In this document: positions 17,396 to 46,918 of the stretch, piece after piece | Position numbering within the stretch: the first letter of the stretch is position 1 | Layout: each line of letters starts with the position of its first letter | DNA from: an uncultured Cytophagia bacterium | Lineage (GTDB): Bacteria > Zhuqueibacterota > Zhuqueibacteria > Residuimicrobiales > Residuimicrobiaceae | Length of the DNA stretch: 64,000 nt | Direction: 5' to 3' | Assembly (NCBI GenBank): GCA_964387285.1 | Contig: CAYLWO010000003.1 | Span: 100,759 to 164,758, forward strand | The notes under the pieces: generated by a model | What the model was told of the DNA's origin: nothing | The model's database searches: none | Seen by the model: the letters and a program-made list of their open reading frames with translations, nothing else | Program-made: the position numbers and the translations under genes

Positions 17396-17430
17396 AACCC
17401 CGGGGTCGCGTTTTTTGCGACCCCGGGTGT
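17396..17430. terminator. Strong palindromic stem-loop between the DUF4838-like and fucosidase genes; possible terminator.
   Basis: AACCCCGGGGTCGC-GTTTTTT-GCGACCCCGGGTG is a 12-13 bp stem. The T-run sits in the loop rather than 3' of the stem, so the call is tentative. Confidence 0.35.
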
Positions 17431-17492
17431 TCCATAGCTCTCTATTTGTGGGACAGCGATTCTTTCTCAAATATTCAAATAAGGATAATGTC

Positions 17493-25540: not shown

Positions 25541-26154
25541 CAGACTTCCTCGCGGTTATTGATGATAGCCTGATCATTCTCTGCTTTGCAGGCGTTGCGA
25601 TGCGGTGTGATCACAATGGACGGATCGGTTAAGTGGCTTTGCGGCAGGGGGAAAATCGTATTGACGCCCTGATAACGCTGTTCCAATTCCACGCGTTCGC
25701 CAAAGGCAAGCACCCGCATGGGACAGGCAGCCACGCAGGCCGGCTCCTTGCCCGACTGCAGCTCGTCGATGCAAAAGGTGCATTTGCTCATGACCCCTGC
25801 CGCTGCGTCGAATCGGGGCGCGCCATGGGGACAGGCCCATTCGCAGTATCGGCAACCGACGCATTTTGTTGCATCCACCAGCACGATGCCCATGTCGGTT
25901 TTGTGCATGGCGCCGGTCGGACAGGTTTGCACACAGATCGGGTCGCTGCAGTGATGGCAGGCCATGGACATATAATAGCTGCGAACAGAGTGTCGCCAGG
26001 CTTTGCCTTCCTGAATCCACCGGCCGCCGCTTACCTCATAGACCCGGCGCCATAAAATTCCGACTGCCAGGCCATGTTTGTCTTTGCAGGCGATCTGGCA
26101 GGTTTTACAACCGCTGCAGCGATTGGCGTCGTAATAAAAGGCGATCTGTTTCAC
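25540..26154 (-). CDS. DMSO-reductase-family 4Fe-4S ferredoxin subunit (DmsB-like).
   Basis: Multiple CxxCxxCxxxCP clusters (CSGCKTCQIACKD, CHHCSDPICVQTCP, CVGCRYCEWACP). Probable GTG start VKQIAFYYD overlapping the DmsA stop. Confidence 0.75.
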   Translation of the reverse strand: MKQIAFYYDANRCSGCKTCQIACKDKHGLAVGILWRRVYEVSGGRWIQEGKAWRHSVRSYYMSMACHHCSDPICVQTCPTGAMHKTDMGIVLVDATKCVGCRYCEWACPHGAPRFDAAAGVMSKCTFCIDELQSGKEPACVAACPMRVLAFGERVELEQRYQGVNTIFPLPQSHLTDPSIVITPHRNACKAENDQAIINNREEV

Positions 26155-28445
26155 GCTTTCACCACCTCCACCATGATCGTATGTTGCGCATTGCCGAAAG
26201 CCAGCGGCGTCCATTTCTCCGATGTCAAGACATTGATATTGCCGCGGCGATCAAGCCCGTTTTCATCCGGGCTCCACCAGGCGCCTTGCGGAATATCGAT
26301 GACTCCGGGCATGATCTTTAACGTGACACGGCAGGGTATCATTAATGCGCCGCGGTCGTTAAATACTTTGACCAGGTCGCCGTCATGTATGCCGCGAGCC
26401 TCGGCATCCAGGGGATTGAGAAACACTCTTTGCGGAAATGCTTCGTTAGCCCAATCGTTGTTGTCGTGAATGGAATGTACCCGGCCCATAGTGTGATGAC
26501 CAATGGCCTGCAATGGATAGACAGCTGCTTCCGGCCCGAAAGGGCTTTCCCATTCCTGAATATATTTGGCTACTGCCGGAACCCATTGCGGATTGTTCAT
26601 ATCCTGCAGGGTCTTGGAAAAAAGTTCGATCTTGCCCGAAGGGGTATTGAGTGGAAATTTAACCGGATCACGCCTAAAGTCGGCAAAGGCGATTTCGGCT
26701 TCGGTTACCGGTGTTGTGTAAACGCCGACATTGCCATCAATCAGGGTTTGCAGGTCGGGTAAATTCGGAAAGCCGTCACGCCGATATTGCGTCAGCGACC
26801 ACTCGACCCAGCTTTTTTCGTCTCTGCCTTCAGAGTATTGCGCGCCCACGCCCAGACGGTCGGCCAACTCGCAACAGATTTGATAATCCGATTTTGTTTC
26901 ACCGAGTGGTTTTACGACCGGCGGCGCCAGTATCACCTCCTGGCCGTATTTCCAGCCGTCCTGCAGTCCCCACATTTCAAACTGCGTGCAAACAGGCAAA
27001 ACCATATCTGCAAACCGCGCGGTCGGCGTCAGGAACTGTTCATGGACGACAAAAAACTCGACCCGGGATTCGTCGCGCATGATCTCAGCCGTGCGGTTGA
27101 CATTGGCATGTTGATTAATGATGGCGTTGGAAGCCACTGCGTAAATCAGTTTGATATCGTTGGCCAATTTTTCAGCGCCAAGCACGCCGTCGCGCGCAGT
27201 CATTTCTTTACCGCGCAGCACCGCTTCGGTCCATAAAAAAGTAGGGATTTTTTCCTTAATCGGATTTTCACCCTGAGGAAATACCAGCCAGCGTGGACCG
27301 CCGCGGTCCGGCTGGCGGGCAATGCCGCCGGCAAAACCGCCGCTGATGCCGACATTGCCGGTTATGGCGGCCAGCGTGCAGCCGGCCAGGACCGCGGACT
27401 CGCCAAAAGCCCGGCGCTGCATGCCGTAGCCCTGATACAACATGGCCGGTTTGGTGAGTGCATATTCCCTGGCCAGACGCACGATGGTTTCTTGTGGGAC
27501 GGTTGTAATCTCTTCCGCCCAGGCCGGCGTTTTGGCAATGCCGTCGCGAAGGCCAAAAATATAATCCGAATAGCTTTCCGCTGTTTCAGCGCCGGCCGGC
27601 ATCTGCGATGCGTCAAAACCGATGCAGTATTTTTTGATAAAGGCAGCGTCGTATAATTTTTCGGATATCATGACATGCGCCATGGCGCTCATCAAGGCCG
27701 CGTCGGTGCCGGGCCGGATGGGAATCCATTCGTCAGCCAGCGCCACCGCACTCATGCTCATGCGCGGATCGATGCAGACGATTTTGGCGCCGTTCTCTTT
27801 GGCTTTTTTCAAAAAATATTCGCTGTTGGTGCCGTCGCGCATTTCACAGGGATTCCAGCTCCACATGAGTATATATTTGGCATGCACCCAATCCTGTCGC
27901 TGGTTTCCTGTATACTCGGTGCCATATACATACGGCGTAGCCTTGGAAATGGCTGCCCAGCTATAACTGTTGTAATAGCCCAGAAAACCGCCGATCAGAT
28001 TGAAAAGTCGCACCGCTGTTTGTCGGCCATTGGTCTGATTATAGCTACCGGTTCCATAGGGCACATAGATGGCGCTGTTGCCGTACTCACGGATGATTCT
28101 TTTTATTTCAAAGGCAATCTCATCCAGGGCTTCCGGCCAGGAAATCCGTGCAAATCCGGCCTCGCCCCGACGGCCGATGCGTTTCATGGGATGCTGCAAG
28201 CGATCCGGATGGTGTTGACGCCGGGCATAGGAACGGCCGCGCATGCAGGCGCGCAGCTGAGGATCGTCGATCCCGTCGTAAGGCCGGTCGTCGGTTTCAA
28301 TGCGAATGATTTTATCGTCCTGGACATGCACTTTGAGCAGACATCGTCCACCGCAATTATGCGCCGGGCACCCGGTGCGCACCATTTTTATTTCAGAGGC
28401 GCTGCTCGTCGGTTTACGTGTTGATTTTTTTGCAAAGAAAGGCAA
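26151..28445 (-). CDS. Molybdopterin (bis-MGD) oxidoreductase catalytic subunit, DmsA-like. No recognisable Tat signal.
   Basis: N-terminus ...GCPAHNCGGRCLLKVHVQDDKIIRIETDD...LRACMRGRS aligns with the mature N-terminus of E. coli DmsA (CTVNCGSRCPLRMHVVDGEIKYVETDN...VRACLRGRS). Only about 24 residues precede the first Cys and there is no RR motif. Confidence 0.8.
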   Translation of the reverse strand: MPFFAKKSTRKPTSSASEIKMVRTGCPAHNCGGRCLLKVHVQDDKIIRIETDDRPYDGIDDPQLRACMRGRSYARRQHHPDRLQHPMKRIGRRGEAGFARISWPEALDEIAFEIKRIIREYGNSAIYVPYGTGSYNQTNGRQTAVRLFNLIGGFLGYYNSYSWAAISKATPYVYGTEYTGNQRQDWVHAKYILMWSWNPCEMRDGTNSEYFLKKAKENGAKIVCIDPRMSMSAVALADEWIPIRPGTDAALMSAMAHVMISEKLYDAAFIKKYCIGFDASQMPAGAETAESYSDYIFGLRDGIAKTPAWAEEITTVPQETIVRLAREYALTKPAMLYQGYGMQRRAFGESAVLAGCTLAAITGNVGISGGFAGGIARQPDRGGPRWLVFPQGENPIKEKIPTFLWTEAVLRGKEMTARDGVLGAEKLANDIKLIYAVASNAIINQHANVNRTAEIMRDESRVEFFVVHEQFLTPTARFADMVLPVCTQFEMWGLQDGWKYGQEVILAPPVVKPLGETKSDYQICCELADRLGVGAQYSEGRDEKSWVEWSLTQYRRDGFPNLPDLQTLIDGNVGVYTTPVTEAEIAFADFRRDPVKFPLNTPSGKIELFSKTLQDMNNPQWVPAVAKYIQEWESPFGPEAAVYPLQAIGHHTMGRVHSIHDNNDWANEAFPQRVFLNPLDAEARGIHDGDLVKVFNDRGALMIPCRVTLKIMPGVIDIPQGAWWSPDENGLDRRGNINVLTSEKWTPLAFGNAQHTIMVEVVKA

Positions 28446-28716
28446 GGATATTTTTAAACCTTAATGCTTAACAACGTGATTCATTGCCAGGTTCAATTAT
28501 ATTTTCTGGGCTTTGCTTCGACTCTTGCAAAGGGATCGTAGCCATGCATGCGGCCGATGCCGCTCACTGTTGGGGTCGTTATTCTCAAAATGTCTTTTTG
28601 TCTCGTCTAAAAAATTTGGACGAGACCAGGGTTCGGCCATGCCAAGACCTGCAGTAACTCCTGGCCTCGGAATTTCAGATAGCAGATGATCATTCTCCCG
28701 GCACTGGTCCAAAAGG

Positions 28717-29535
28717 TCACAGTTGGAGATAATACCCATCCATTAAAAGCTGCAAGAACCATTCACTGGGATCCGCGTCATCCTTTTTAATGTGCCAGTG
28801 AATCTGCTGGTCGCCGTTCAAGGCGACAATTGTATTGGCAAGCGTGCTTCCTTCTCCTGTATAATTGCCGAGACCGTCATCGCCAATATCCAAATAGCAT
28901 GTTTGATTGTCGACTGTGTTCCAATTCGCCGGATCAGTGGAGAGATATAACCGTATGACCGGAGAACCTGACTGTGATGTCAACCGGGCATACAAAATCG
29001 CTCTAATCTGAATATGAGTGGCATTTGACGGCAACGAGTGACCGATCAACGTTTCTATATCCAAAGTCGCCCCCTCATCGGCACTGGTGGATAACGTCGT
29101 CACATTGCGAAGCGTCGCTGAAAACGGGACGAAAACAAGGGAACCGGGAATAGGGAGAGGAATGCGTACGGTGTTGCCTCTGGCAATCGACAAGAGAGCG
29201 CCGGGTTGCCCGTCTCGATTCAATGAAAGGGTCTGGTTGTCCGTGTCAATGAATTGGGGCTGCGTGCTCAAATTGCCCACAGCGTCGGCGATTAGCATCT
29301 GTTGATGACCGTTTGCCAGGTCGGAAATGCGCACATTGCCGGCCACGTCTAAACTGGCTTGCGGTAAGGTCGTTCCGATGCCCAACCTGCCGTCATTGGT
29401 CATGCGGACGGTTTCGCTTTGTGAATTGAGAATTACTAATTGCGCGAAAGACGGACGAAAAGTCATCAGGCAACTTAACGCCAGACCATAATAAAGGGAT
29501 GAGATTCTCAAATATCGATTTGTATAAAGTACCAT
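28717..29535 (-). CDS. Small secreted protein, paralog 1 of 3 (tail-fibre-like N-terminal motif family).
   Basis: Signal peptide. Conserved G-LGIGTT-PQA-LDV-GN-RI block and a DNQTLSL...GNTV block shared with the next two genes. Confidence 0.5.
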   Translation of the reverse strand: MVLYTNRYLRISSLYYGLALSCLMTFRPSFAQLVILNSQSETVRMTNDGRLGIGTTLPQASLDVAGNVRISDLANGHQQMLIADAVGNLSTQPQFIDTDNQTLSLNRDGQPGALLSIARGNTVRIPLPIPGSLVFVPFSATLRNVTTLSTSADEGATLDIETLIGHSLPSNATHIQIRAILYARLTSQSGSPVIRLYLSTDPANWNTVDNQTCYLDIGDDGLGNYTGEGSTLANTIVALNGDQQIHWHIKKDDADPSEWFLQLLMDGYYLQL

Positions 29536-29601
29536 CTCAAACTCCTGGTTGTTTCAATATGAATTTTGAACAGTTTGCTGTTCATGAAAAAGTTGACATA
29601 T

Positions 29602-30396
29602 CTAATACGCGACAAAATAACCTTCCAGATATACGTCCATCCTCAGGAAAAAATTATGACCCATTGTGTTGTCGACATTGTCAGATTCTACCGAGTATTG
29701 AAATTCATAGTTGGCCGCGGATTCGAGAACGACGGTAGCTGTTTGTGAATTCTCCCAGCAATCGCTATCATAAACCTGATGGCCGGCATCGATGTATAAC
29801 ACGCGTGTATCATCGGTAAATGAGCCGGAACGATCGATCCAGACATTTAAGATGGGATTATCGTATGTAAGTTTCCTTACATGAGCGTTAATACGAAGCA
29901 TGAGATGCTGGGTGTTGTCGGGAAAGTTGAATCCAGGTATTTTTTCCTGCAACCAGGTCAGCACATTGAATGTGCCTTGCTTTTTGTTGATGGCGTAAAG
30001 TTGTCCAAGATATCGACGAAGTGGAAAAAAAGCTCTGGCTCCTGTTGGTGCTGTGGGCAGCACGACGGTGTTTCCGTTGGAAATGCTTAGATTTTGTCCG
30101 TTTATGGATAATGTCTGTTGATCCGTATCGACGGGAATGGTCTCAACAGACAACAGTCCATTGGTCTCAACCGTTACCATGCGCTGCGGCGATGAACTCA
30201 GGCTGGAGATGCGCGCATTGCCATTCACATCCAATTGCGCATTTGGTTGCGTGGTGGCCAATCCCAGTCGGCCTTGCTCCGAGATGCGGACAATCTCGGC
30301 GCCCGAACCATTCCAAATTCGAATCTGCGCAATGCCGGCAACAACCGCACCGAGGAGCAGAATAATATTGATTGTTTGTTTTAGTAGGTTCAGCAT
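29602..30396 (-). CDS. Small secreted protein, paralog 2 of 3.
   Basis: GRLGLATTQPNAQLDVNGNARIS and DQQTLSINGQNLSISNGNTVVLP. C-terminus LEGYFVAY. Confidence 0.5.
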   Translation of the reverse strand: MLNLLKQTINIILLLGAVVAGIAQIRIWNGSGAEIVRISEQGRLGLATTQPNAQLDVNGNARISSLSSSPQRMVTVETNGLLSVETIPVDTDQQTLSINGQNLSISNGNTVVLPTAPTGARAFFPLRRYLGQLYAINKKQGTFNVLTWLQEKIPGFNFPDNTQHLMLRINAHVRKLTYDNPILNVWIDRSGSFTDDTRVLYIDAGHQVYDSDCWENSQTATVVLESAANYEFQYSVESDNVDNTMGHNFFLRMDVYLEGYFVAY

Positions 30397-30421
30397 GTTG
30401 ATACCCCTAAGTAGATTTCAC

Positions 30422-31228
30422 TCAGTTTAATTGTTTGTAATAGCCATCGATGTACACCATGGCAAAATACTTGCACGCCGCGTTGCCGGAACCCGACTTG
30501 CGAAATGAAAAGTTGAGGGTCTTGCTGTCTCCCAAAGCGATGATCTTGGAACAGCTGGTGTCTTTTTCCGGCGTCCTGAGATTATGGACGCCGTCTGCCG
30601 GATAACCATAATCAACATAAGCGATCATTTTTTCCAGAGAGATGGCGACATCCGGAGCGGTCATGACGTACAGCTGAAAATTGGGATTTGCCGCGCCTGT
30701 CGCGTCACCGTCAGCGATTACGCGCAACAGGATATGACTGGCATCAGCAGGGAGCAGCGCTCCCAAGATGTCACCTACATTAACGGAAAAATTAAAAGGA
30801 GTTGTATCCCTGGTTTCCGATTGATAGAGAAATTTACGCAACGGGTAAAATAGCAAAGCCGGTGCTGAGGGCATGCCCAGGCTCACTTCATTCCCGTCGG
30901 TAATACCGAGCATGTAGCCCAGATTGACGTCCGAACGAAGGTAGAGAGTCTGGTCGTCTGTATTTTGTGGAATGGCCATGGCCGACAATTCACCATTGGC
31001 ATCGGCGATCACCATTCTTTTTGCACCGCCCAGCAGATTCTGTACACGCATGGTGCCGACCACATCAAGACGCGCTTGCGGGTTTGTGGTCCCCAGTCCC
31101 AGAGAACCTGAGGAGGTGATCACTCCCAAGTTGCTTGCTCCTTCCTTGAACAATATTTGGGCAAAGAGATATTGAGTTACCAGCAACTTGAGCAAGAGAA
31201 TCAATATCAAGTTTTTCATTTTTAACAT
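30422..31228 (-). CDS. Small secreted protein, paralog 3 of 3.
   Basis: GSLGLGTTNPQARLDVVGTMRVQ and DDQTLYLRSDVNLGYMLGITDGNEVSLG. C-terminus IDGYYKQLN. Confidence 0.5.
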   Translation of the reverse strand: MLKMKNLILILLLKLLVTQYLFAQILFKEGASNLGVITSSGSLGLGTTNPQARLDVVGTMRVQNLLGGAKRMVIADANGELSAMAIPQNTDDQTLYLRSDVNLGYMLGITDGNEVSLGMPSAPALLFYPLRKFLYQSETRDTTPFNFSVNVGDILGALLPADASHILLRVIADGDATGAANPNFQLYVMTAPDVAISLEKMIAYVDYGYPADGVHNLRTPEKDTSCSKIIALGDSKTLNFSFRKSGSGNAACKYFAMVYIDGYYKQLN

Positions 31229-31770
31229 TTTTTCTCCTTTTCATTAAAAAGTTACATCAATAAATGGGGTAGAAAATTCTGGTTATTTCACGTTTTTATG
31301 GTGAAAAGACGAAACCAAAAAAAGAATGATTTTTTAATAACTTGTTAATGTTGAACGTAAAGGGAGTGATAAAATTTATTAAACTGCTGCAGGTGAACTA
31401 TACAAATAACGTGCCAATTGATAAGAAAGATTTAATTTAGGTGATATGTAAAAAAATTTTGTTTGTGGGAACGGTGAGTTTCAATTTTAATTCTATTAGA
31501 GTTATCATCGGATGGTCTGAAAACGATTTGGCTTTGCCAGTAAATAATTCGAAAAAAAGAGCAGATGACAGCACGCAGAGCCACCATCTACTTATCCTGT
31601 GGATATTTGATATAGATTTATAACAATGATCTATCTCCTTTTTGTTGCGAGTCGGTATTTTGGGGACTAAGCCAAGACAAATTCTATAATATCAATTTTT
31701 TATACAATGATAATTTTACAATTGTTTTGAAATTAATAAGTATTGCTTGTCTTGGTCCGAGCCCGTATAT

Positions 31771-32916
31771 CTATTTCCGATTTGGATTGTACCGGATGGG
31801 TTTTCCTTCCACCCGCTCAATTGGATCATTGACAAAAACTCTGCCGAGTCCGATGGCAGAGGTGAGCGTGCCGCCTTTTTTGTCCTCGCTGATGCCGTCC
31901 GAGTAACCCAGATCCACCGGAACTTTGCCTCTGCCGCCCTGAGCATCTACCACATAAGTGGGTCGGAGAAATCCGGTGGTGGCGCCGCATAGGTCGCGAC
32001 AAATTTCTTTCCCTTTATTGACCGGTGTTCTGAAATGGCCCGTGCCTTCCACCAGATCAGCATAATAGAGATAATAGGGCCTGACGCCCATTTTCCCGAG
32101 ACTGTGCACAAGGTTGCGCATGACATCCGTATCATCGTTAACGCCTTTAAGCAAAACCGACTGGTTTCCTAATGGGATGCCCACTTGCCGCAATATTTGC
32201 ACAGCCTGCCAGCTTTCCTCAGTTATCTCATTGGGATGATTAAAATGGGTATTGATGAAAAGCTGTGGATCCTTGAACGATCGTGGCGTGTGACTCTTGA
32301 GCACCTCGATCAGTTCCGTATCCTCGACAATTTTCTGCGGCCAGACGCAGGGCACGCGGGTGCCGATGCGAATGACATCCAGGTGATCGATCTTTTTGAG
32401 CTTGCCTAAAATTTCATCGAGACGTTTGTTCGAAATGAGCAAAGGATCTCCGCCGGAGATCAGCACATCCCGGATCTCCTCATGGCCGGCAACATAGTCA
32501 ACGCCCTTCATGATCTCTTCGATAGCCGGATTTTTGTGGTCGTCGCCGACCTTGCGTTTTCTGGTGCAGAACCGGCAATACATGGCGCACTCGTTGGATA
32601 CGAACAACAGCACGCGGTCTGGATAACGGTGGATGATGGTTCTGGGACCTCCCAATGGAATATCACCCTCCTCATCCAGGGGATCCTCGCTCAAATCCAT
32701 GTAATGCTCGAGCTCTTCCACATCGGGAATGGCTTGTTTCCAGATGCCGTCGTTTATTTTTTGAATAAGGCTGAGATAATAGGTATTCACCCGCATCGGA
32801 TATTTGGCAATGACCTGCTCAAGCTGCGGATCAACGCGCGCACCCTGTCCTGTGAGCCATTTTTCCAGGTCTGCAAAGGTCTTGATCGCATTTTTTAGAA
32901 TATCTTTATAGGCCAT
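31771..32916 (-). CDS. KamA-family radical SAM aminomutase (lysine 2,3-aminomutase-like), C-terminally shorter than canonical KamA.
   Basis: CAMYCRFCTRKR (CxxxCxxC). Extensive similarity to Clostridium KamA (TPYYLSL..., NTHFNHPNEITEES..., LGNQSVLL.GVND, RPYYLY, HFRTPV). Lacks the C-terminal Cys-rich zinc tail. Confidence 0.8.
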   Translation of the reverse strand: MAYKDILKNAIKTFADLEKWLTGQGARVDPQLEQVIAKYPMRVNTYYLSLIQKINDGIWKQAIPDVEELEHYMDLSEDPLDEEGDIPLGGPRTIIHRYPDRVLLFVSNECAMYCRFCTRKRKVGDDHKNPAIEEIMKGVDYVAGHEEIRDVLISGGDPLLISNKRLDEILGKLKKIDHLDVIRIGTRVPCVWPQKIVEDTELIEVLKSHTPRSFKDPQLFINTHFNHPNEITEESWQAVQILRQVGIPLGNQSVLLKGVNDDTDVMRNLVHSLGKMGVRPYYLYYADLVEGTGHFRTPVNKGKEICRDLCGATTGFLRPTYVVDAQGGRGKVPVDLGYSDGISEDKKGGTLTSAIGLGRVFVNDPIERVEGKPIRYNPNRK

Positions 32917-32951
32917 GTCACGTTCTCCTCCCGTATTGTTTTTTTAAAACC

Positions 32952-33857
32952 TTACTGGTTTATAAATTCGGTGAGATCCAATTTCGGTAAATCCAATCCG
33001 ATTACCACCAGTTGATTTTTCCCCACCTGGCCGGTTGGGAACAACGTCTCCTGCCATGTGTCCTGGCCTGCATCAATATAATAGCACTGATTCTCGATAG
33101 TGACAAATCCCTTGGCGCGCAACTGGCTGCCCTGTATTTTTTGGACCAGCCTTTGCCACGCAGCGCGAGTAAAGATACCATCCGTTTGCAGGGTAAGGGA
33201 TTGCACCGGATCCGGACGCCCATCGCCCAATTCGCCAACCGGTGCAGGCCGCGGACGACGCAGACGCTGCAGCAGGTCCAGAGAAAAATTTGCGTATTGG
33301 GTTTCAATGACCTGCGCTCGCGGCGCCAGTTCTGCCAGAGCCTGACGTGTTGCGTCTAGAGCTTCTGCAGAAGCCAAATCGGTTTTATTCAGCAGGATCA
33401 GATCAGCGTTCACAACCTGTGAAATCGGCGCTTGCAGAAATTTAACGATTTTGAAAAAATTCGTCGCATCCACCAAAGCAACACAGGCCTGCAAATCAAT
33501 GCGCCGGATGAGATTAGGCAAGGCCAGCATTTTTTCCATCTCGGACGTATCGGCCAGACCTGTGGCTTCGATCAACAACAGCTCCGGCCTGAGCTGCACG
33601 GCGATGCGTTCGATTTCGTCGATAAAATCGGTGCGCACACAGATGCAGAACAGGCTGCCCTTGTTTAATTCTACCAGTTGATAATCGCCTTTGAGCAACA
33701 ATGCGCCGTCAATGCCCACCTGACCGAATTCATTGACCAGCAACACGGTGCGCCGGCTGCGATAATGCTCGATCAGCCGGTTCAGCAACGTGGTTTTGCC
33801 GGCAGCGAGAAAACCGGTGAGTAAAATGGTGGGAATCAATCCATGCTTTTCAGCCAT
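32952..33857 (-). CDS. COG0523 / CobW-family G3E GTPase (putative metallochaperone).
   Basis: P-loop GFLAAGKTTLLNRL, switch region LLVNEFGQVGIDG, and a C-terminal CobW_C-like region. Confidence 0.7.
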   Translation of the reverse strand: MAEKHGLIPTILLTGFLAAGKTTLLNRLIEHYRSRRTVLLVNEFGQVGIDGALLLKGDYQLVELNKGSLFCICVRTDFIDEIERIAVQLRPELLLIEATGLADTSEMEKMLALPNLIRRIDLQACVALVDATNFFKIVKFLQAPISQVVNADLILLNKTDLASAEALDATRQALAELAPRAQVIETQYANFSLDLLQRLRRPRPAPVGELGDGRPDPVQSLTLQTDGIFTRAAWQRLVQKIQGSQLRAKGFVTIENQCYYIDAGQDTWQETLFPTGQVGKNQLVVIGLDLPKLDLTEFINQ

Positions 33858-35455
33858 TCCTTGATGACCTCCACCGAAGGCACGCGACCATCCGCTTTAA
33901 CCTGCTCGACCACGCTGATGATAGCCGGCAATTCGTTGATCTGATAACCGGCGATTTTTTTCTTGTCAATGATTTTGTGGATTTCCACCCGACTGCCCAG
34001 TTCTTTCTGCGCCTGGCGTACGTTTTCCATTGCTTGACGACTGGCTTCGCTGTCGTCGGCCAAAACCAGCAACCGGCCGCGGTTTTGCCACATTTTAAGC
34101 GAATACTTTTCATTGATGCGTTGCTGAATGGCTTTGATCAATTCCTGGCGGGAAGGGATGATGCTGACGAATTTGATCTGTCCGTCGATGCAGATGGTGG
34201 GTATATTTTTCACCATCAGGCCCATCATAAACTCGATGGATTCCCGTTCCTTGATTTTGTGCTCGCGCCAGATGACCAGTCCGTGGAAACTTTCGACTGC
34301 TGAGCGCACCGCCTCCACCATATACTGGCAGGGTGCGCAGGATTCCGAATCCAGCGTCACCACATCGACGATGACCTGATCGGAGCGACCGTACTCGCTG
34401 AGATTAATGGTCTCCTCCGTTGCCTGTTCTTTGACCTGCAGCTCTTTTGCGACCTGTCGCTGATACGGATCTTGCACAAGGCCGGTGATCAGCTGCAGGT
34501 GATGAGGCGGCGTGGCAAAAGGCAAATCGCAACCCGGCGCCAGGATAAAGCCGGCATCCCCGCCGATCTCCAGACACTCCAGCGCATTGCGCGTCACGTC
34601 CGATTCTTTACCGAGCAGCAGGACCACGGTCAATTGCAGATTGCCGCCGAACGAGACCTTGTGTTTTTGACAAATGCTTTTGACAAAATCGAGGGGAATG
34701 TTTTCATCCACGGAAATGTTATCCGGCCCGGTCAGGCACATGTTTTCCACATTTTTCTGCGCATGACCGCAGACAAAAAACGAGCTCGGTTTCTTTCTAT
34801 TGCGCACATGCCGGAAAAAATCAGAAGCGTAAGGTGTCACGTATTCCTGAAACGCTTCGGGTGAAATCTGGCTGGTCATGGGATCGACAATGGAAATGAT
34901 GTCGCAGTTATGATCAATATAAATATCGGCCATGCTTTTGGCCACGGTGGTGCAATAAGCCAACAAGGCTTTAACCTCATCAGGCCGGTCATACATGTCG
35001 ATAAAAATGGAAGTGCCTTTCAGATGCAAAGCCAGAGTAAAAGGACCGGTGATCAAACCATAGAGGGCCACATCCGGAGCTGATTTTTGTATCTGCTGCA
35101 AAGCGTACAGGATAACAGGGATTCGACCGGCTGTGGCGGACAATGGCGGCAGGTCCTGCAGTTGTTTTTCATCCAAAACATGGCTCTGTACTGCCGGTGG
35201 ATTTTCCGGGGCCCACTGCAGCTTACAGCCGAGAATTTCCGCTTCAACCGAGAGATCGAAATAAACCGGAATGCCGTCCGGTTTATACAGCTCGATGGCC
35301 TTTAAGATGCCTTTGGTCAATAAATCGCCGGATTTTAGAAATGACTCGGCATCTGTTTGGATCAACGAAGCGCCGTGACAACCAACGAACGGCACCCAGG
35401 GCGTCCGTTCGGTTTTTTTACCGTGGATGGCGTCTAACAGGAGGCTTTTGCCCAT
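33836..35455 (-). CDS. URO-D/MtaA-like (uroporphyrinogen decarboxylase family) domain fused to two tandem thioredoxin-fold (redox-active disulfide protein 2-like) domains.
   Basis: URO-D-like N-terminus KSLLLDAIHGKKTERTPWVP; ...APGCDLPFATPP. C-terminal domain 1 has CAPC (CxxC). Domain 2 (...GYQINELPAIISVVEQVKADGRVPSVEVIKEWL) matches the MTH895-type thioredoxin fold but lacks CxxC. Confidence 0.55.
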   Translation of the reverse strand: MGKSLLLDAIHGKKTERTPWVPFVGCHGASLIQTDAESFLKSGDLLTKGILKAIELYKPDGIPVYFDLSVEAEILGCKLQWAPENPPAVQSHVLDEKQLQDLPPLSATAGRIPVILYALQQIQKSAPDVALYGLITGPFTLALHLKGTSIFIDMYDRPDEVKALLAYCTTVAKSMADIYIDHNCDIISIVDPMTSQISPEAFQEYVTPYASDFFRHVRNRKKPSSFFVCGHAQKNVENMCLTGPDNISVDENIPLDFVKSICQKHKVSFGGNLQLTVVLLLGKESDVTRNALECLEIGGDAGFILAPGCDLPFATPPHHLQLITGLVQDPYQRQVAKELQVKEQATEETINLSEYGRSDQVIVDVVTLDSESCAPCQYMVEAVRSAVESFHGLVIWREHKIKERESIEFMMGLMVKNIPTICIDGQIKFVSIIPSRQELIKAIQQRINEKYSLKMWQNRGRLLVLADDSEASRQAMENVRQAQKELGSRVEIHKIIDKKKIAGYQINELPAIISVVEQVKADGRVPSVEVIKEWLKSMD

Positions 35456-36710: not shown

Positions 36711-37712
36711 TTACGGATATACCTCCAGCGCCCTGCTTTGCGCCAGCAAATTCTCTGGCGGCGTGCCATCCGGAATTTCGCAACCAGCGGCGCTAAAGCA
36801 GGTTTCCCCACCGTTGATAATACAGTCGCCGACCGCTTTGCTTACTTTTGCCGGTGAACCGAAACGCATGATGCTTACCGGATTCTGATTGCCGCACACA
36901 GCGGCCTGAGGAGTGAAAATGTGCGCCGCCCTTTTCAGATCCACCATCCAATCAACATCGATGATGTCTGCGTCGGACAAAACCATGTCCGATAAAATCG
37001 CACTGGTGTCGCCGCAAATATGCAAACGTGTTAATGCACCGGCTTTTTTAACTGCGCTAAAAATTCGCTGTTCATAGGGCAAGGCATACCGTTGATAGAA
37101 TAGTGGAGATATCTGCGAAGCAATGGCATCGCCGAGGCCGATGATATCGGCCCCGGCCTGCACTTGCGCAAGGGCAAACGCGGTTTCCTGTTCACAGGCA
37201 AAAGCCAACAGATCCTGCAGCCATGCCGGCTCGTCGCACAGAGCGGTCAAAAGCTGCGTTACGCCCATCAGGGTTGCACTCAGCGCCAATGCCCCTTCCA
37301 CCCATCCCATACTCATTACCTCCGGTCTCTGCTGATGAAAGAGGGCAATAGCCTGTAATCGGTCTGCCATACGTGGACCGGATTCCGGTTGAACCATTCT
37401 GAGGGATAGAATGTCCTGCGGTGTGTTGATGAGCGGAGTTGTGCAAACCGGCAGGTCGTCCTGGGGAAAATGAATCCTGCTGCCCAAATCATGCGCTTCG
37501 CGATAGGGATCCGAGATGGCCTGCAGTACATCGAGTTGAAAATCCCGCTGCGCGTGAAAATTGGCCTCAGCTAAAACGCGGTAGTCCTGGTAATATTCAG
37601 ACAACGGTCGCTGTATATGGTGGCAGGCAAAGATCATCATGATGTTGAAATTGGGGACACGGTCCACCGTCTTGCCCTGCAGCCGGTGTTGCACTCTCTC
37701 TTTACTGTTCAC
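36711..37712 (-). CDS. MtaA/CmuA-family zinc methyltransferase (URO-D superfamily).
   Basis: GTG start 8 nt after the aclA stop gives MNSKERVQHRLQGKTVDRVP; the annotated 37823 start would overlap aclA by 104 nt. Zinc motif LHICGDTSAIL and downstream GCEIP. Confidence 0.65.
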   Translation of the reverse strand: MNSKERVQHRLQGKTVDRVPNFNIMMIFACHHIQRPLSEYYQDYRVLAEANFHAQRDFQLDVLQAISDPYREAHDLGSRIHFPQDDLPVCTTPLINTPQDILSLRMVQPESGPRMADRLQAIALFHQQRPEVMSMGWVEGALALSATLMGVTQLLTALCDEPAWLQDLLAFACEQETAFALAQVQAGADIIGLGDAIASQISPLFYQRYALPYEQRIFSAVKKAGALTRLHICGDTSAILSDMVLSDADIIDVDWMVDLKRAAHIFTPQAAVCGNQNPVSIMRFGSPAKVSKAVGDCIINGGETCFSAAGCEIPDGTPPENLLAQSRALEVYP

Positions 37713-37719
37713 AATCGTC

Positions 37720-40443
37720 TCAGATAACGAATTGAATTTTATCCTGCGGCGTACGGCAATCCATATCCAGGCCGCGATCACGATGATCCGCGATTTCCGC
37801 AGCAATGCCGATGGCGCGACCATACAGGAATTGTGTAAACGATAAATCCTGCACCATGCTGATGGTGATGCGTTTGGAATGCAAATCCTTCCACACCAGT
37901 TTTAAAATAATCACGGCCAGCACCGCATCGATATTGACGCAAAAGACGTTTTTGGTGACGCCTTCATTGAAAAGCTCTTTGACCAACAGTCGGTAAAACT
38001 CGTGAAAGGCGTTATAGATGCCGCGTTGCGCCATTTCGTCATAGATGAATTTTTCGCGCGGATCGATGTTGACGGCATTGCCTTTAAAAACCGGATGGTT
38101 GATGCAGGGAATGCGTTTGATCGGTTGCTCGGTTTGTTCTTTTTCCGTTTTTTTATAATCGCGATAATGGCAGGCCGCATCATGGGCGAGCTTTTTTAAA
38201 TCGAGATTATGGTTGCGGTCGCCCGGGTCTGCCTCGATCGTGGGGAAATTCTCCAGCAGAAAAGCAATGGCCTCAAATCCATTGCCGCCATGGGCCAGCC
38301 CCGTGCTGGTCAGAAAACCGAGAAACGCCGTGGCAATGTGATTGCGCGCACTGACCGATTGCTTGGCCCCTTTGGCCGACAGGGTGCCGGGTCCGTTGGT
38401 CAGGGTCAATCCGATCAGGGACTGGAATTCGAACAGCTCGGTCTCATTCGGCTTGCGATTGAACAAGATCGCAAAAGCGTTTTCGGTAAAACTGTTGTTC
38501 AGGTTGTCGATTTTGGCGTCTATCAGTTCCCGCCAGTATTGGTTCTGTTTACGATCAATAACCGAATAAGCCACAATGCGGCTGATGATGTAAAAATAGG
38601 TTACCGCGTCCTCGACCACCTGTCGACTGATTCGTTTTTCCAGCATGGGCTTCCAGAACAGCGCCACGGCAATGCCGCCCATCAAAAACTCGTATTGATC
38701 ACGAATGTCTTTATTTTTCTCTTCTGCCAGATGAATGATGTGCTGCAATACCCGGATGGGAAAAGATTTCTTGGACGATTTTTTGATCTCTTTAAGAAAA
38801 AGCTCGGAAACGTCGGTTTTGCGTATGGGTTCATCGGTGAGCAAATGCACATCAAGATATTCATCCAGGGCCTGCGGAAACGCTTTGGTCACATCGCTGA
38901 TTTCGAATTCGCGGATCAAATCGATTAGGAAACAGGCCGCATCGCGCGCTTTGGCCAGCATTTGTCGATTGCCGATAAGGGCGATCTGCGAGCCGATGTA
39001 GGCGTTGGGCGTGCAACCGTTGCTGCGCGCCACATCCACGAGGTCCATGCGTCGCTCGTCCATTTTCAAAAACAGATTCAGCAAGAGATTAATGGTGGCT
39101 ACATCGTCCGCTTCCGGCATCACCTTGGCCAGACTGAAATAAATGTTCTCTTCCATGGAATGTTTGGCCAGTTCCAGAATGGACCGGCCATGCAATTCCG
39201 AAACCTGGGTCTTGGGATCCATGCGCGAGGCGCCGGATTTGTCCGCCATATTCTGTCGTAAAAAATGCGCGCCCACCTGTTTGTTGATCTCTTTGATCTG
39301 CTGATCATAGGGCGGCATGGCAGTTACCACCGGCATATCCAATTCTTTGGGCATTTTTATCCAGGAATCGCTGATCCATAGTTTCAGCGACAGATCGCCC
39401 TGGCTTTTAAAATCGCTCTCTTCGCCCATAGCCGCAAACACGGCTTTCATGGCATCAGGAAAGTGCTGGATGGAAGCCACGCGCACGCCACGCTTGCCCA
39501 CCTCTATCCTGGCCGGATTGAAAACCGGCACGCCGAAATAGTCGTCGAACCACTTTTCTTTGGATTCGGCGTCGTCGCCGCTGCCGGCCAATGCACCGGC
39601 ATGGCCGCACGAGCGCTGAATGTCTTTTTTCCAGCGACCGGTAACGCAAACCACAATGGGTTTGTTAAAACCGAACCGTCGTTCCGCAATCCAGTCCAGC
39701 GCCATTTTTTCATAATAACCGCCCGGCTCCACATAGAGCGCCACGGCCTTGGTGCGCGGATCGTTTTGTGCGGCATATAAAAACTCGGGCAGGGCGAAAT
39801 GAATGTAAATATCCTTGCCGGAACTCACCGCTGTGCTGATGCCGAATCCGGCAGAGCGCAGGTACTCGGCAATGGTGGTGGTGAAATTGCCGGAATTGGA
39901 ATGCAACGCCACCGATCCTTTTACCAGCGCTTCTGCGGGATTGTCGCCGCCCAGGGCGCCGCCGACGCGTACGTGATCCCACACATTGGCCACGCCCAGA
40001 CAATTGGCGCCGATGATGTCTACCCCTGCCTCCTGACAGACAAAGCGACAATTGCGCGAATCCCGGGCCGGCACTTTTTCGGTGACGATGACCACTCGTT
40101 TGAGTTTATCGTTATAATAGGCCAGTTCGGCAACCGCCTGACTCACCGCCAACGGCGGCAAATAGATGACGCCGATGTCAAAAAAAATGCCTTGTTCCAT
40201 GACATCTCGAATACTGCTGTACACCGGGATGGGACCGATCCTGGTCTCCAGTTCGCCTTTGCGTCCATATTGTACGCCGGCAACAATATTGCCGCCGCTG
40301 TATTCGTGCGACACCGGTGTGACCTTGCGGCTCTCGTTGCCCAATATATTGATGACGCACACGCGCGAATCCCGCGTGGCCATTTCTTCCAGAGAATGAA
40401 CGCCGAGAAAGTAAGGAAACGGTTTGGTCTTTTGTGGTCTCAT
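37720..40443 (-). CDS. ATP-citrate lyase alpha-like subunit: SucD-like CoA-binding/ligase domain fused to a citrate-synthase-like domain (AclA-like, about 908 aa).
   Basis: Start chosen at MRPQKTKPFPYFLG (ATG 40443) to avoid overlap with aclB. Phospho-His loop SCGHAGALAGSGDD (compare SucD MGHAGAI). C-terminal STGLAHGGNGFEAIAFL resembles the citrate synthase GPxHGGANE motif. Confidence 0.6.
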   Translation of the reverse strand: MRPQKTKPFPYFLGVHSLEEMATRDSRVCVINILGNESRKVTPVSHEYSGGNIVAGVQYGRKGELETRIGPIPVYSSIRDVMEQGIFFDIGVIYLPPLAVSQAVAELAYYNDKLKRVVIVTEKVPARDSRNCRFVCQEAGVDIIGANCLGVANVWDHVRVGGALGGDNPAEALVKGSVALHSNSGNFTTTIAEYLRSAGFGISTAVSSGKDIYIHFALPEFLYAAQNDPRTKAVALYVEPGGYYEKMALDWIAERRFGFNKPIVVCVTGRWKKDIQRSCGHAGALAGSGDDAESKEKWFDDYFGVPVFNPARIEVGKRGVRVASIQHFPDAMKAVFAAMGEESDFKSQGDLSLKLWISDSWIKMPKELDMPVVTAMPPYDQQIKEINKQVGAHFLRQNMADKSGASRMDPKTQVSELHGRSILELAKHSMEENIYFSLAKVMPEADDVATINLLLNLFLKMDERRMDLVDVARSNGCTPNAYIGSQIALIGNRQMLAKARDAACFLIDLIREFEISDVTKAFPQALDEYLDVHLLTDEPIRKTDVSELFLKEIKKSSKKSFPIRVLQHIIHLAEEKNKDIRDQYEFLMGGIAVALFWKPMLEKRISRQVVEDAVTYFYIISRIVAYSVIDRKQNQYWRELIDAKIDNLNNSFTENAFAILFNRKPNETELFEFQSLIGLTLTNGPGTLSAKGAKQSVSARNHIATAFLGFLTSTGLAHGGNGFEAIAFLLENFPTIEADPGDRNHNLDLKKLAHDAACHYRDYKKTEKEQTEQPIKRIPCINHPVFKGNAVNIDPREKFIYDEMAQRGIYNAFHEFYRLLVKELFNEGVTKNVFCVNIDAVLAVIILKLVWKDLHSKRITISMVQDLSFTQFLYGRAIGIAAEIADHRDRGLDMDCRTPQDKIQFVI

Positions 40444-40505
40444 GAAAAAATTTACCCTTGCAAAGGTTGCTGATTTGATGAAATACGAATTTTGTGTTCG
40501 CTTTT

Positions 40506-41795
40506 CTAAATTAAAACCGGATTTTCGCTCAAGCGCTGACTCCAGTTTATATAGTCTGTCCTGCCTATTTCTCGCCACCAGCTATCCACGCGTTTGGCAT
40601 ATTCCAGCACCTGGATCATCGATGTGTCGTAACCGAACATCTTGTAGGGCAACTTTAAGGTGTCCAGAATGTCCTTGCCGTAAAACATGCCCTTGATCAG
40701 ATTGGGACCGCCGCGTCCCACAACGGTATAAATGGGAGTTTTACCGTGATGCGACATGTGGTCGCGTAAAGCGTCAAAAATCCCTTTGAAGGTGACATAG
40801 ATATCCGTGTTGTTGGCTTTGCCGCCGATGATGAGGAGAACACTGGCTTTGTTGAGCCAATGCTTGAAAACAATGCGGCTGATTTCGTACATTTTTTCAT
40901 AAGGCGGATTGCCGCCGAAATCGGACGCAAAAATAGCGGACGCGCCCAAAGTTTCTGTGGCCGCTGAATTGGCGCCGCCGCCGAACATAAAAGGCATGAT
41001 GCTGCCGTTGGGATTGAGTTCCAGCACGTCACTCTGTCCCTGATAGGTGCGCAGCTGATTGATTTCGGATTCGAACGGAGAGATATCGGATTGAAAAATG
41101 GTTGCCGGCAATCCCAGCCGCTTCCAGGCAGGATTGTCCTGATCGAACTGCGCTTTGAGATCACAGGCTATGGGGATCAGTTTGCCGTCGCTTTTCATCA
41201 TGCGAATGGGATTGATTTCCAGCGTGGTCAGGCCATAGTTGTCGTACAGACTCCACAGCTTGGGCAGATTTTGCACCAGCGGTGAGATATACGCTTCCGG
41301 ACAACCGGTATCGGTCAACGCATTGGTGATGTCAAAGGATTTCAAGCCGATAAAAGGATCGATCCAGATGACCTGCTTTTTATCAAAGGACAGGCTTTCG
41401 ATGTCCATGCCGCCAAATGGTGAAATGGTAAAGATGGGTTTACGGTGGGCCGTGGAAGCTGCGATACTAAAGTACACCTCAATCTCGGAGGGGATGAACG
41501 CTTCAAAAGTCACGCCGTTGGCATAGACGGTCTTGCTGCCGTATTGATGGCCGGCAAAGTACAACTCTTTTTTGGCCTGTAAGGCATCGAGCACATTGTC
41601 GACGATGCGCACCAGTCCGGCTTTGCCCTTTTTACCTACGCCGCCTGAAAAAAAAGGCTTCACTACCAGTTTTTTATGCTGAGTAAGAAGCCTTTGAATT
41701 TGTTCCTTGGTGGCGTCGGCTGTCAGAAATGGGGCATAGGGAAACTCGACCAGATCCAGCAGCTGAGCGCCGTACTTGAGTCCGGAGATTTGCAT
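40506..41795 (-). CDS. ATP-citrate lyase beta-like subunit (SucC-like ATP-grasp, AclB-like).
   Basis: LVVKPFFSGGVGKKGKAGLVRIV aligns with ACLY/AclB LVVKPDQLIKRRGKLGLV. Full SucC-like length, immediately upstream of the SucD+CS fusion. Confidence 0.65.
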   Translation of the reverse strand: MQISGLKYGAQLLDLVEFPYAPFLTADATKEQIQRLLTQHKKLVVKPFFSGGVGKKGKAGLVRIVDNVLDALQAKKELYFAGHQYGSKTVYANGVTFEAFIPSEIEVYFSIAASTAHRKPIFTISPFGGMDIESLSFDKKQVIWIDPFIGLKSFDITNALTDTGCPEAYISPLVQNLPKLWSLYDNYGLTTLEINPIRMMKSDGKLIPIACDLKAQFDQDNPAWKRLGLPATIFQSDISPFESEINQLRTYQGQSDVLELNPNGSIMPFMFGGGANSAATETLGASAIFASDFGGNPPYEKMYEISRIVFKHWLNKASVLLIIGGKANNTDIYVTFKGIFDALRDHMSHHGKTPIYTVVGRGGPNLIKGMFYGKDILDTLKLPYKMFGYDTSMIQVLEYAKRVDSWWREIGRTDYINWSQRLSENPVLI

Positions 41796-46910: not shown

Positions 46911-46918
46911 GGAAGGTC

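What the first reader, a model, noticed from the sequence alone, without database searches (positions are those of the whole stretch)
28717..31770. Three tandem, highly diverged paralogs of a small secreted protein with a tail-fibre-like N-terminal motif, downstream of a 540-nt AT-rich region
All three proteins are 264-272 aa with signal peptides. They share the block G(R/S)LG(I/L)(G/A)TT-P(Q/N)A-LDV-G(N/T)-R(I/V) and a second block D-QTL(S/Y)(L/I)...GN(T/E)V-(I/L)P. These resemble the N-terminal motif and the first repeat of the long 'tail fibre domain-containing' surface proteins of Flavobacteriia. Here, though, the proteins stop after a roughly 130-aa C-terminal domain ending in an aromatic-rich tail (DGYYLQL, LEGYFVAY, IDGYYKQLN). 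They have no T9SS CTD and no S74 chaperone domain.

Identity between paralogs is low (roughly 30%), which suggests diversifying selection on a surface or adhesin-like unit. The unusually long AT-rich upstream region (31229-31770) could carry a complex promoter.
Basis: partly seen in the sequence, partly recalled or inferred. Interest (0 to 1): 0.55.

Follow-up and report, generated by a model that had tools for sequence, protein, structure and literature searches.

The report
Three tandem secreted mini-fibre proteins
Three neighbouring genes encode small exported proteins, each joining one unit of a phage-tail-fibre-type stalk to a very rare, undescribed jelly-roll head domain; they are most likely short adhesin or lectin fibres, a minimal variant of a known kind of bacterial surface fibre.

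Summary
Three co-oriented minus-strand genes (30422-31228, 29602-30396, 28717-29535) encode 268, 264 and 272 aa paralogs with Sec-type signal peptides and Shine-Dalgarno-like sites. They are separated by only 25 and 66 nt.

Each protein has two modules:
- **Stalk (~95 aa, 42-50% identical between paralogs).** It carries one copy of the 'GxLGIGTTxPxAxLDVxG' repeat of trimeric beta-helical fibres. In the PDB the profile hits only the Bdellovibrio MAT fibres (Bd2133, E 7e-9), and it weakly hits PHROG tail-fibre families.
- **Head (~146 aa, 20-28% identical).** It belongs to a domain family with no Pfam, NCBIfam or PDB sequence match. An exhaustive search of 1.84 billion representatives found only six other credible proteins. 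AlphaFold models it confidently (pLDDT 90.8) as an eight-stranded jelly-roll. It resembles phage fibre or baseplate tips, the Bd2133 tip and TNF-like lectins only loosely (TM about 0.5).

No S74 domain, T9SS CTD or phage neighbours were found. No orthologs exist in any collection searched.

The AT-rich upstream stretch is real (26% GC, the window minimum), but its distal part holds a terminator for the upstream operon.

Trimerisation, cell location, ligand and diversifying selection remain untested. Verdict: a new minimal variant of cell-encoded tail-fibre-like adhesins, of moderate interest.

The parts
30422..31228 (-). Gene C, first of the array (268 aa). Signal peptide residues 1-23 (31160-31228), stalk 24-118 (30875-31159), jelly-roll head 119-268 (30425-30874).
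   Evidence: ORF. AGGAG lies 6 nt before the ATG. Alignment. Head boundaries. Present in the protein collection as P0029.
29602..30396 (-). Gene B (264 aa). Signal peptide 1-23 (30328-30396), stalk 24-114 (30055-30327), head 115-264 (29605-30054). The spacer to gene C is 25 nt.
   Evidence: AGGGG lies 8 nt before the ATG. P0002.
28717..29535 (-). Gene A, last of the array (272 aa). Signal peptide 1-31 (29443-29535), stalk 32-126 (29158-29442), head 127-272 (28720-29157). The spacer to gene B is 66 nt.
   Evidence: AGGAG lies 7 nt before the ATG. P0001. AlphaFold model of the head has pLDDT 90.8.
31229..31559 (-). AT-rich leader and putative promoter region of the array (about 330 nt). It holds the GC minimum of the window and is rich in A/T tracts.
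   Evidence: GC is 26% at 31199-31498. Two sigma-70-like matches lie at 31484-31456 and 31424-31397, but at chance frequency. No Rfam family. No Bacteroidota-type TAnnTTTG motif. The promoter function is inferred, not shown.
31560..31592 (-). Terminator-like hairpin (13-bp stem followed by a U7 tract). It most likely ends the upstream radical-SAM / CobW / URO-D operon, which makes the array a separate transcription unit.
   Evidence: Fold energy -18 kcal/mol, z = -2.7, and 0 of 200 shuffles fold as well.

Best explanation
The three genes form one small operon encoding Sec-exported 'mini-fibres'.

**Stalk.** After signal-peptide cleavage (..A|Q) each mature protein of about 240 aa starts with a stalk of about 95 aa. 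The stalk is made of modules that build the shafts of trimeric beta-helical fibres. These are one 'GxLGIGTTxPxAxLDVxGxxR' unit, an 'RMVIADxNGxLS' connector, and one 'DTDxQTLSL...GNxVxLP' unit.

**Head.** The stalk is followed by a C-terminal eight-stranded jelly-roll head of about 146 aa from a very rare domain family.

**Proposed mechanism.** By analogy with the C-terminal ends of Bdellovibrio MAT fibres and phage receptor-binding proteins, the stalk would drive trimerisation. The head trimer would then bind a ligand, most plausibly a glycan. Gene duplication has produced three heads of different specificity on a conserved stalk.

**Shown here:** paralogy, module homology of the stalk, the fold class of the head, rarity, and the lack of phage context.

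**Inferred:** export, trimerisation, ligand binding, location outside the cell, and co-transcription.
For: - **Operon layout.** The genes are tight and co-oriented, each with a Shine-Dalgarno-like site. A terminator lies upstream.
- **Signal peptides.** They end in A|Q, as in at least five other secreted proteins of the window (GH3, transglutaminase-like, fucosidase, TolC, ORF 59609-60826). This is the Q-rule pattern of PMC5837995 and indicates native Sec/SPI substrates.
- **Stalk homology.** The five best PDB sequence hits, four of them at E<=1.4e-3, are all Bdellovibrio MAT fibre fragments (8OND E 7.4e-9; 8OML, 8OJN, 8OL4; 8ON4 at E 0.051). All align on the motif. PHROG tail-fibre families are also hit. 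The same motif is repeated many times in S74-ended viral fibres. The connector and second block recur in front of unrelated C-terminal domains in metagenomic proteins.
- **Precedent for a short construct.** In the 152-residue chain 8OJN, the motif lies near the N-terminus (chain residues ~19-40). Its length matches the Bd2734 691-843 construct that PMC10769870 describes as a TNF-like tip; that identification is my inference (PMC10769870, read).
- **Head model.** pLDDT 90.8 and pTM 0.84, all-beta. Foldseek neighbours are the phage KP1 baseplate cup, the cyanophage A4 tail, the cyanophage A-1(L) short-tail-fibre CBD, the Bd2133 tip, the trimeric TNF-like lectins BC2L-C-N and PLTL, BxpB and Pgp3.
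- **Divergence pattern.** The head diverges far more than the stalk.
- **Relatives of the head are also extracytoplasmic.** P0033 has a signal peptide ending GA|Q and P0035 has an N-terminal membrane anchor. P0033 lies 2.6 kb from an S74 fibre gene.
Against: - No trimer prediction could be run.
- The full-length model leaves the stalk unresolved (pLDDT <50).
- Structural matches of the head are only generic (TM 0.45-0.58, 10-16% identity). Viral capsid jelly-rolls score about the same.
- The proteins lack the ~130-aa N-terminal anchoring domain of MAT fibres, any lipobox conserved across the three, a T9SS CTD and an S74 chaperone. How they would cross or attach to the outer membrane is therefore unknown.
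- Relatives carry the head domain two to four times in tandem within one chain, so it is not obligatorily a terminal trimer tip.
- No ligand is indicated.
Confidence: 0.5

Rival explanations
1. The three chains assemble into one obligate A/B/C heterotrimer. This would resemble C1q, whose three chains are encoded by three tandem genes. The result would be a single asymmetric fibre with a composite head, not three separate homotrimers.
For: - There are exactly three paralogs of nearly equal length (264-272 aa) in one tight operon, which would give equal dosage.
- The stalk is kept in register, with only one 5-residue indel in block 2, while the heads diverge.
- One distant relative (P0034) carries three head copies in a single chain.
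Against: - There is no direct evidence.
- Other relatives carry one, two or four copies.
- The solved MAT fibres and TNF-like lectins that match are homotrimers (PMC10769870; PDB descriptions).
- Multimer modelling was not available.
Confidence: 0.12
2. The proteins are monomeric periplasmic or secreted carbohydrate-binding proteins of a polysaccharide-degrading bacterium. On this view the fibre motif is a vestigial linker with no trimerising role.
For: - The neighbourhood is rich in glycoside hydrolases: GH3, GH106 and fucosidase.
- The proteins have only a Sec signal and no surface-targeting signal.
- The head domain occurs in tandem in single chains, as CBMs do.
Against: - The array is flanked by unrelated operons (DmsABC, radical SAM/CobW/URO-D) and is not inside a hydrolase operon.
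- Top structural neighbours are fibre tips, TNF-like lectins and capsid jelly-rolls. No CBM families appear among the 50 best PDB matches.
- The stalk is the better-conserved half of the proteins, which argues that it has a function.
Confidence: 0.2
3. The genes are remnants of a prophage or tailocin: receptor-binding proteins left in the chromosome.
For: - Weak PHROG tail-fibre hits.
- Phage tips are among the structural neighbours.
- Codon usage and GC3 are slightly atypical.
- The flank is AT-rich.
Against: - The annotated ORFs of the window (about 28 kb upstream and 35 kb downstream) showed no phage family; several ORFs have no family hit and a few were not scanned.
- tblastn against 50,697 phage genomes finds no match.
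- The viral contig scan hits only the generic stalk motif.
- The proteins carry host-type Q-rule signal peptides, which I would not expect on virion proteins (my inference).
- The codon deviation is within the range of other short genes of the window, such as DmsB and DmsC.
Confidence: 0.05

Closest known systems
Bdellovibrio bacteriovorus MAT ('mosaic adhesive trimeric') fibres, NS74 subgroup (Bd2133, Bd2734, Bd2439; Caulton et al. 2024, PMC10769870)
   Same: - Both are chromosomally encoded and carry a Sec signal peptide.
- Both have the shaft repeat 'E+MRIxxxGNVGIGTxxPxxxLxVxG'. The trio profile hits 8OND at E 7.4e-9 and four further MAT fragments.
- Both end in a non-S74 beta-sandwich or TNF-like tip that varies between paralogs ('tip swapping').
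- The Bd2133 tip is among the structural neighbours of the head.
   Different: - MAT fibres are about 1,000 aa with long beta-helices and a conserved ~130-aa N-terminal domain after the signal peptide.
- Here only 12-15 residues precede a single repeat, and the whole mature protein is about 240 aa.
- The head shows no sequence similarity to any MAT tip.
- The host belongs to an unnamed lineage whose closest named relatives are Ignavibacteria, Melioribacteraceae, KSB1 and Calditrichota. It has no known predatory lifestyle.
S74-type tail fibres and the 'tail fiber domain-containing' proteins of Bacteroidota, phages and giant viruses (Peptidase_S74, PF13884)
   Same: The same stalk repeats occur. 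They are seen in P0018 and P0019 with S74, in the viral 2,790-aa and 2,455-aa fibres, and in P0008, P0009 and P0014 with the 'DNQTLSLxGxxLSIxGGNxVxL' repeat.
   Different: - The trio has no S74 intramolecular chaperone.
- It has one copy of each repeat instead of many.
- It ends in a jelly-roll head of another family.
Trimeric TNF/C1q-like bacterial lectins and heads (BC2L-C N-terminal domain 2WQ4/6ZZW, Photorhabdus PLTL 9IB7, B. anthracis BxpB, Chlamydia Pgp3 C-terminal domain)
   Same: - The fold class is shared: a compact jelly-roll. TMq/TMt is 0.54/0.58 to 6ZZW.
- The head sits at the end of a fibrous or oligomerising segment.
   Different: - Sequence identity is 10-15% and there is no profile match.
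- The similarity is no better than to viral capsid jelly-rolls.
- Trimer and sugar binding are unknown here.
The head-domain family itself (P0031/P0037, P0033, P0034, P0035, P0036), an unnamed family
   Same: - Shared signature: FxP ... GxLDLxxLxGxxIPxNATHVxLR ... VVPL ... W ... I(E/D)GY(Y/F).
- The whole-protein E-values run from 1.6e-8 to 3.4e-4, and the matches to P0031, P0033, P0035 and P0037 cover nearly the whole domain.
   Different: - Identity is 17-25%.
- In those proteins the domain is repeated in tandem, or follows a signal peptide or membrane anchor directly. In one case it follows RCC1 repeats.
- None of them has the fibre stalk.

Membership tests
Bdellovibrio-type MAT fibres (PMC10769870) | Sec signal peptide | tested here: met
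   Judged by inspection only. All three have a basic n-region, a hydrophobic core and A|Q. No signal-peptide predictor was available.
Bdellovibrio-type MAT fibres (PMC10769870) | [quoted passage not shown] | tested here: not met
   Only 12-15 residues lie between the predicted cleavage site and the GIGT motif, so there is no room for such a domain.
Bdellovibrio-type MAT fibres (PMC10769870) | Beta-helical shaft built from GxxGIGT-type repeats | tested here: inconclusive
   The motif is homologous (8OND E 7.4e-9). Only one copy is present, however, and the stalk was not modelled with confidence (pLDDT <50).
Bdellovibrio-type MAT fibres (PMC10769870) | Variable C-terminal tip (S74, or non-S74 adhesive fold) | tested here: met
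   The head is a confident jelly-roll with fibre-tip and TNF-like lectin neighbours. The heads are 20-28% identical between paralogs.
Bdellovibrio-type MAT fibres (PMC10769870) | Homotrimeric assembly | not testable with these tools
   Only monomer prediction was available.
S74 tail fibres / endosialidase-chaperone proteins | C-terminal Peptidase_S74 intramolecular chaperone domain (PF13884) | tested here: not met
   There is no Pfam hit at E<=10 for any of the three. The same library does detect S74 in P0018, P0019 and the L002 neighbour.
T9SS cargo proteins of Bacteroidota | C-terminal T9SS sorting domain | tested here: not met
   There is no NCBIfam or Pfam hit at E<=10. The C-terminus is the last strand of the jelly-roll.
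TNF/C1q-like lectin superfamily | TNF-like jelly-roll fold | tested here: inconclusive
TNF/C1q-like lectin superfamily | Trimer with a ligand site at protomer interfaces | not testable with these tools
   No multimer modelling or docking was available.
Phage or prophage tail fibre | Location among phage structural genes, or a match to phage genomes | tested here: not met
   Neighbours are metabolic and transport genes. tblastn against phage genomes finds nothing. PHROG hits are limited to the stalk motif.
Anti-phage defence systems (PADLOC) | Match to a defence-protein model | tested here: not met
   No family at E<=1.

The most novel reading that the evidence does not exclude
The three paralogs are the three chains of one heterotrimeric, C1q-like bacterial lectin fibre. 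It would be built on a minimal phage-fibre stalk and carry a previously undescribed jelly-roll head family. This would be a natural minimal scaffold showing how little shaft a trimeric receptor-binding fibre needs, and a case of convergent 'three tandem genes, one fibre' organisation.
Probability: 0.1. Interest if true: 0.6.

Novelty: new variant of a known kind. Interest (0 to 1): 0.38.

Why it matters
Cell-encoded, phage-fibre-like adhesins were characterised structurally in the 2024 Bdellovibrio study. There they are about 1,000 aa long and their tips are swapped between paralogs.

This locus shows the same building logic reduced to about 240 residues: one shaft repeat plus a tip. It sits in a non-predatory, glycan-degrading anaerobe of a poorly known lineage, and it is triplicated with diverged tips.

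It also adds an unannotated head-domain family, now with a confident model, that occurs in only a handful of proteins among billions. If the proteins are trimeric lectins, they would be compact and easily expressed scaffolds for studying or engineering receptor-binding tips.

If they are not trimeric, the locus is simply a lineage-specific set of secreted proteins of unknown role.

Tried and rejected
**Searches that found nothing beyond the stalk motif**
- Orthologs and copy-number variation. The word-indexed search of 5.8 billion proteins found only the trio itself at full length.
- The exhaustive HMMER search of 1.84 billion representatives with the head profile found the trio plus eight weak hits, of which six are credible.
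- The GTDB genome scan with protein A found nothing.
- Two JGI metagenome scans found only stalk-motif matches.
- A second word-indexed search with the 16-domain profile returned only P0001.

**Synteny**
- 38 DmsA-containing loci from Ignavibacteriota, Bacteroidales, Acidobacteriota and others share only dmsABC. None has the trio.
- The closest AclB-bearing contigs (about 87-88% identity) have different neighbours.
- Insertion boundaries therefore could not be defined.

**Selection**
- dN/dS was not attempted because the paralogs are too diverged.
- The only second copy (Logan SRR12133403) differs by 5 SNPs in 14.9 kb.

**Alternative origins and roles**
- Horizontal transfer: GC3 and codon usage are only mildly atypical, within the range of other short genes.
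- Regulatory RNA or repeats in the AT-rich region: the only Rfam hit in the scanned interval (28300-32000) is a sub-threshold serC-leader match at 29612-29666 inside gene B (E 0.79); nothing lies in the AT-rich region itself. Only chance-level short repeats were found.
- There is no Bacteroidota-type -7 box.
- Invertible or shufflon-like organisation: there are no meaningful inverted repeats, and all genes share one orientation.
- Defence system: no PADLOC hit.
- Homology of the head to the C-terminal domains of other short stalk-bearing proteins (P0003, P0014, P0027): hhalign probability is below 1%.

Full report
**1. What is in the sequence**

Three minus-strand ORFs occupy 30422-31228 (C, 268 aa), 29602-30396 (B, 264 aa) and 28717-29535 (A, 272 aa). 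They are separated by 25 and 66 nt. Each is preceded by an AGGAG or AGGGG motif 6-8 nt before the ATG.

The proteins align over their full length with 31-34% identity and 49 invariant columns. tblastn between copies gives E 1e-22 to 1e-33, so the paralogy is real. No other ORF in the 64-kb window matches either half of the proteins.

Each starts with a basic n-region, a hydrophobic core and '..A|Q' (SFA|Q, GIA|Q, LFA|Q). The same A/G/S|Q junction is seen in at least five other secreted proteins of the window: GH3, the transglutaminase-like protein, fucosidase, TolC and ORF 59609-60826. This is the 'Q-rule' pattern described for signal peptidase I substrates (PMC5837995, found). The trio therefore looks like native Sec substrates of this host. 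No signal-peptide predictor was available, so this rests on inspection.

**2. Two modules with different histories**

Identity between paralogs is 42-50% in the ~95-aa segment after the signal peptide (the stalk). It is only 20-28% in the C-terminal ~146 aa (the head).

*Stalk.* A profile of the three proteins finds many database proteins, but they match only residues ~30-125. The matches fall on the unit 'GxLGIGTTxPxAxLDVxGxxR' and the unit 'DTDxQTLSLxGxxLSIxxGNxVxLP'. In those proteins both units are repeated many times (P0008, P0009, P0014).

- Some of those proteins end in Peptidase_S74 (P0018, P0019).
- Viral contigs carry the first unit dozens of times in S74-ended fibres of 2,790 and 2,455 aa.
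- PHROG tail-fibre families are hit weakly (phrog_9942 at E 8e-5, phrog_18345 at E 1.9e-4).
- Against all PDB sequences, the five best hits, four of them at E<=1.4e-3, are all fragments of Bdellovibrio MAT fibres: 8OND/Bd2133 at E 7.4e-9, then 8OML, 8OJN, 8OL4, and 8ON4 at E 0.051. All align on this unit.
- In those crystal structures the unit belongs to trimeric beta-helices that precede a variable tip (PMC10769870).
- In the 152-residue chain 8OJN, a single unit lies near the N-terminus (chain residues ~19-40). Its length matches the Bd2734 691-843 construct that the paper describes as a TNF-like tip, though I inferred that identification rather than reading it from the entry.
- Metagenomic proteins show the same 'VRIxDLxGxGxRMVIADANGDLSTQ' connector directly before unrelated C-terminal domains.

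*Head.* Pfam, NCBIfam, PHROGs (beyond the stalk) and PADLOC give nothing. PDB sequence search with a 16-domain profile gives nothing.

An exhaustive HMMER scan of 1.84 billion representatives with the head profile found the three proteins themselves and only eight others at E<=1e-3. Two of these (P0030, P0032) are repetitive proteins with fragmentary matches, which I discount. The six credible ones are:

| Protein | Length | Layout |
|---|---|---|
| P0031, P0037 | 640 aa | two copies |
| P0033 | 286 aa | signal peptide plus two copies |
| P0035 | 191 aa | membrane anchor plus one copy |
| P0034 | 1,527 aa | RCC1 repeats plus three copies |
| P0036 | 1,138 aa | three to four copies |

.

The 16 domain copies share the signature FxP ... 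GxLDLxxLxGxxIPxNATHVxLR ... VVPL ... W ... I(E/D)GY(Y/F).

With this alignment AlphaFold gives a confident model (pLDDT 90.8, pTM 0.84) of eight long strands, a jelly-roll sandwich. The full-length model from three sequences had already given the head pLDDT ~70-76, but it left the stalk below 50.

Foldseek against the PDB puts these on top:
- phage tail and baseplate proteins (9F4B, 9K09, and 8KE9, the CBD of the cyanophage A-1(L) short tail fibre);
- the Bd2133 fibre tip (8OND, 8OK3);
- the trimeric TNF-like lectins BC2L-C-N and PLTL;
- BxpB and Pgp3.

**3. Context**

Downstream on the same strand, after 270 nt, lies dmsABC. Upstream lies an operon of a KamA-like radical SAM enzyme, CobW and a URO-D/thioredoxin fusion. 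The annotated ORFs across the rest of the window encode glycoside hydrolases, ATP-citrate lyase, efflux and transport genes, and none is phage-related; several ORFs have no family hit and a few were not scanned.

The 542-nt gap upstream of gene C is the most AT-rich stretch of the window (26% GC over 31199-31498). At 31592-31560 it contains a 13-bp hairpin followed by U7 (z = -2.7, no shuffle as stable). I read this as the terminator of the upstream operon. That leaves about 330 nt as promoter and leader of the trio.

Promoter-like hexamers occur at chance level. There is no Rfam match and no Bacteroidota-type -7 box. No classical terminator follows gene A, so read-through into dmsABC cannot be excluded. 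A functional link is unlikely, however, because 38 dmsABC loci in other genomes lack the trio.

The organism is an unnamed lineage. AclB is 85-90% identical to proteins of unnamed MAGs and 73-78% to Ignavibacteria, Melioribacteraceae, KSB1 and Calditrichota. DmsA is 74-76% identical to Melioribacter and Ignavibacteriales.

The only other public copy of the locus is the same strain (5 SNPs in 14.9 kb). Composition and codon usage of the trio are only mildly atypical.

**4. Interpretation**

The most economical reading is a small operon of Sec-exported mini-fibres. Each would have one shaft unit that trimerises, as in MAT and S74 fibres, capped by a jelly-roll head that binds a ligand. Duplication would then have produced three diverged heads.

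This works like the distal end of a MAT NS74 fibre. It is not a member of that family, because the defining N-terminal domain and long shaft are absent. It is also not an S74 fibre, a T9SS cargo or a prophage gene.

Untested links are trimerisation, passage to the cell surface and the ligand. The tandem occurrence of the head domain in single chains elsewhere keeps a monomeric carbohydrate-binding role alive as a rival. The three-gene, equal-length layout keeps an A/B/C heterotrimer alive as the most novel reading.

**5. Verdict**

This is a new minimal variant of a known kind (cell-encoded tail-fibre-like adhesins) carrying a very rare, undescribed head domain. Interest is moderate. It would be mildly surprising to specialists and useful as a compact model if the proteins are trimeric, but no new principle is shown.

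Noticed in passing
window 31560-31592 (-): A strong terminator-like hairpin (13 bp plus U7, z -2.7) sits inside the 'AT-rich upstream region', about 180 nt after the stop of the KamA-like gene. It splits the region into a 3' UTR of the upstream operon and about 330 nt of leader for the trio.
   Followed up: yes
window, N-termini of ORFs 5441-8218, 8357-10726, 17415-18980, 46907-48262, 59609-60826 and the trio: Most SPI-type signal peptides in the window end in (A/G/S)|Q, the 'Q-rule' reported as specific to Bacteroidetes rather than the whole FCB group (PMC5837995). Yet the closest named relatives of marker proteins are Ignavibacteria, Melioribacteraceae, KSB1 and Calditrichota.
   Followed up: partly
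window 26151-28445 (-), dmsA-like gene: Relatives align only from residue ~20 (MVRTGCPAHNCGG...), and no twin-arginine motif is visible at the N-terminus. The catalytic subunit of this DmsABC-type enzyme may therefore lack a Tat signal. Homologs at 65-77% identity are spread over Ignavibacteriota, Bacteroidales, Acidobacteriota, Aminicenantes and Anaerolineales with no shared flanks, which suggests a mobile operon.
   Followed up: no
window 31771-35455 (-): The operon consists of a KamA-like radical SAM enzyme, a CobW GTPase and a 539-aa fusion of a URO-D/MtaA-like domain with a C-terminal thioredoxin domain. A second URO-D-like gene lies at 36711-37823. This is an unusual combination whose function was not examined.
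   Followed up: no
window 37720-41795 (-): ATP-citrate lyase genes (aclB and aclA-like) lie in a genome region otherwise rich in glycoside hydrolases (GH3, GH106, fucosidase). This hints at a reductive or reversible TCA cycle in a glycan degrader.
   Followed up: no
L002 8001-8861 and 11479-12789 (GCA_021777105.1, JAIQZQ010000071.1): The distant head-domain relative P0033 (signal peptide plus two head copies) lies 2.6 kb from a 436-aa Peptidase_S74 fibre protein that carries the GIGT motif. Both genes are flanked by intergenic gaps of about 0.4-1.5 kb, next to sugar-modifying genes (DegT, Asn synthase, radical SAM/SPASM).
   Followed up: partly
L044 8001-12584 (JGI 3300041085): A 1,527-aa protein combines RCC1/WD40-like repeats, a long Ser-rich linker and three tandem copies of the head domain. 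It is followed by two more very large unannotated ORFs (956 aa and over 1,997 aa).
   Followed up: no
L043 3-401 (-) and 571-5680 (+): The 640-aa two-copy head-domain protein P0031 sits beside a UvsX-like recombinase fragment and two large ORFs with no family hit. This may be a viral contig, but that is unproven.
   Followed up: partly
window 29412-29711: A secondary GC dip (36%) spans the 3' end of gene B, the B-A spacer and the signal-peptide region of gene A.
   Followed up: no
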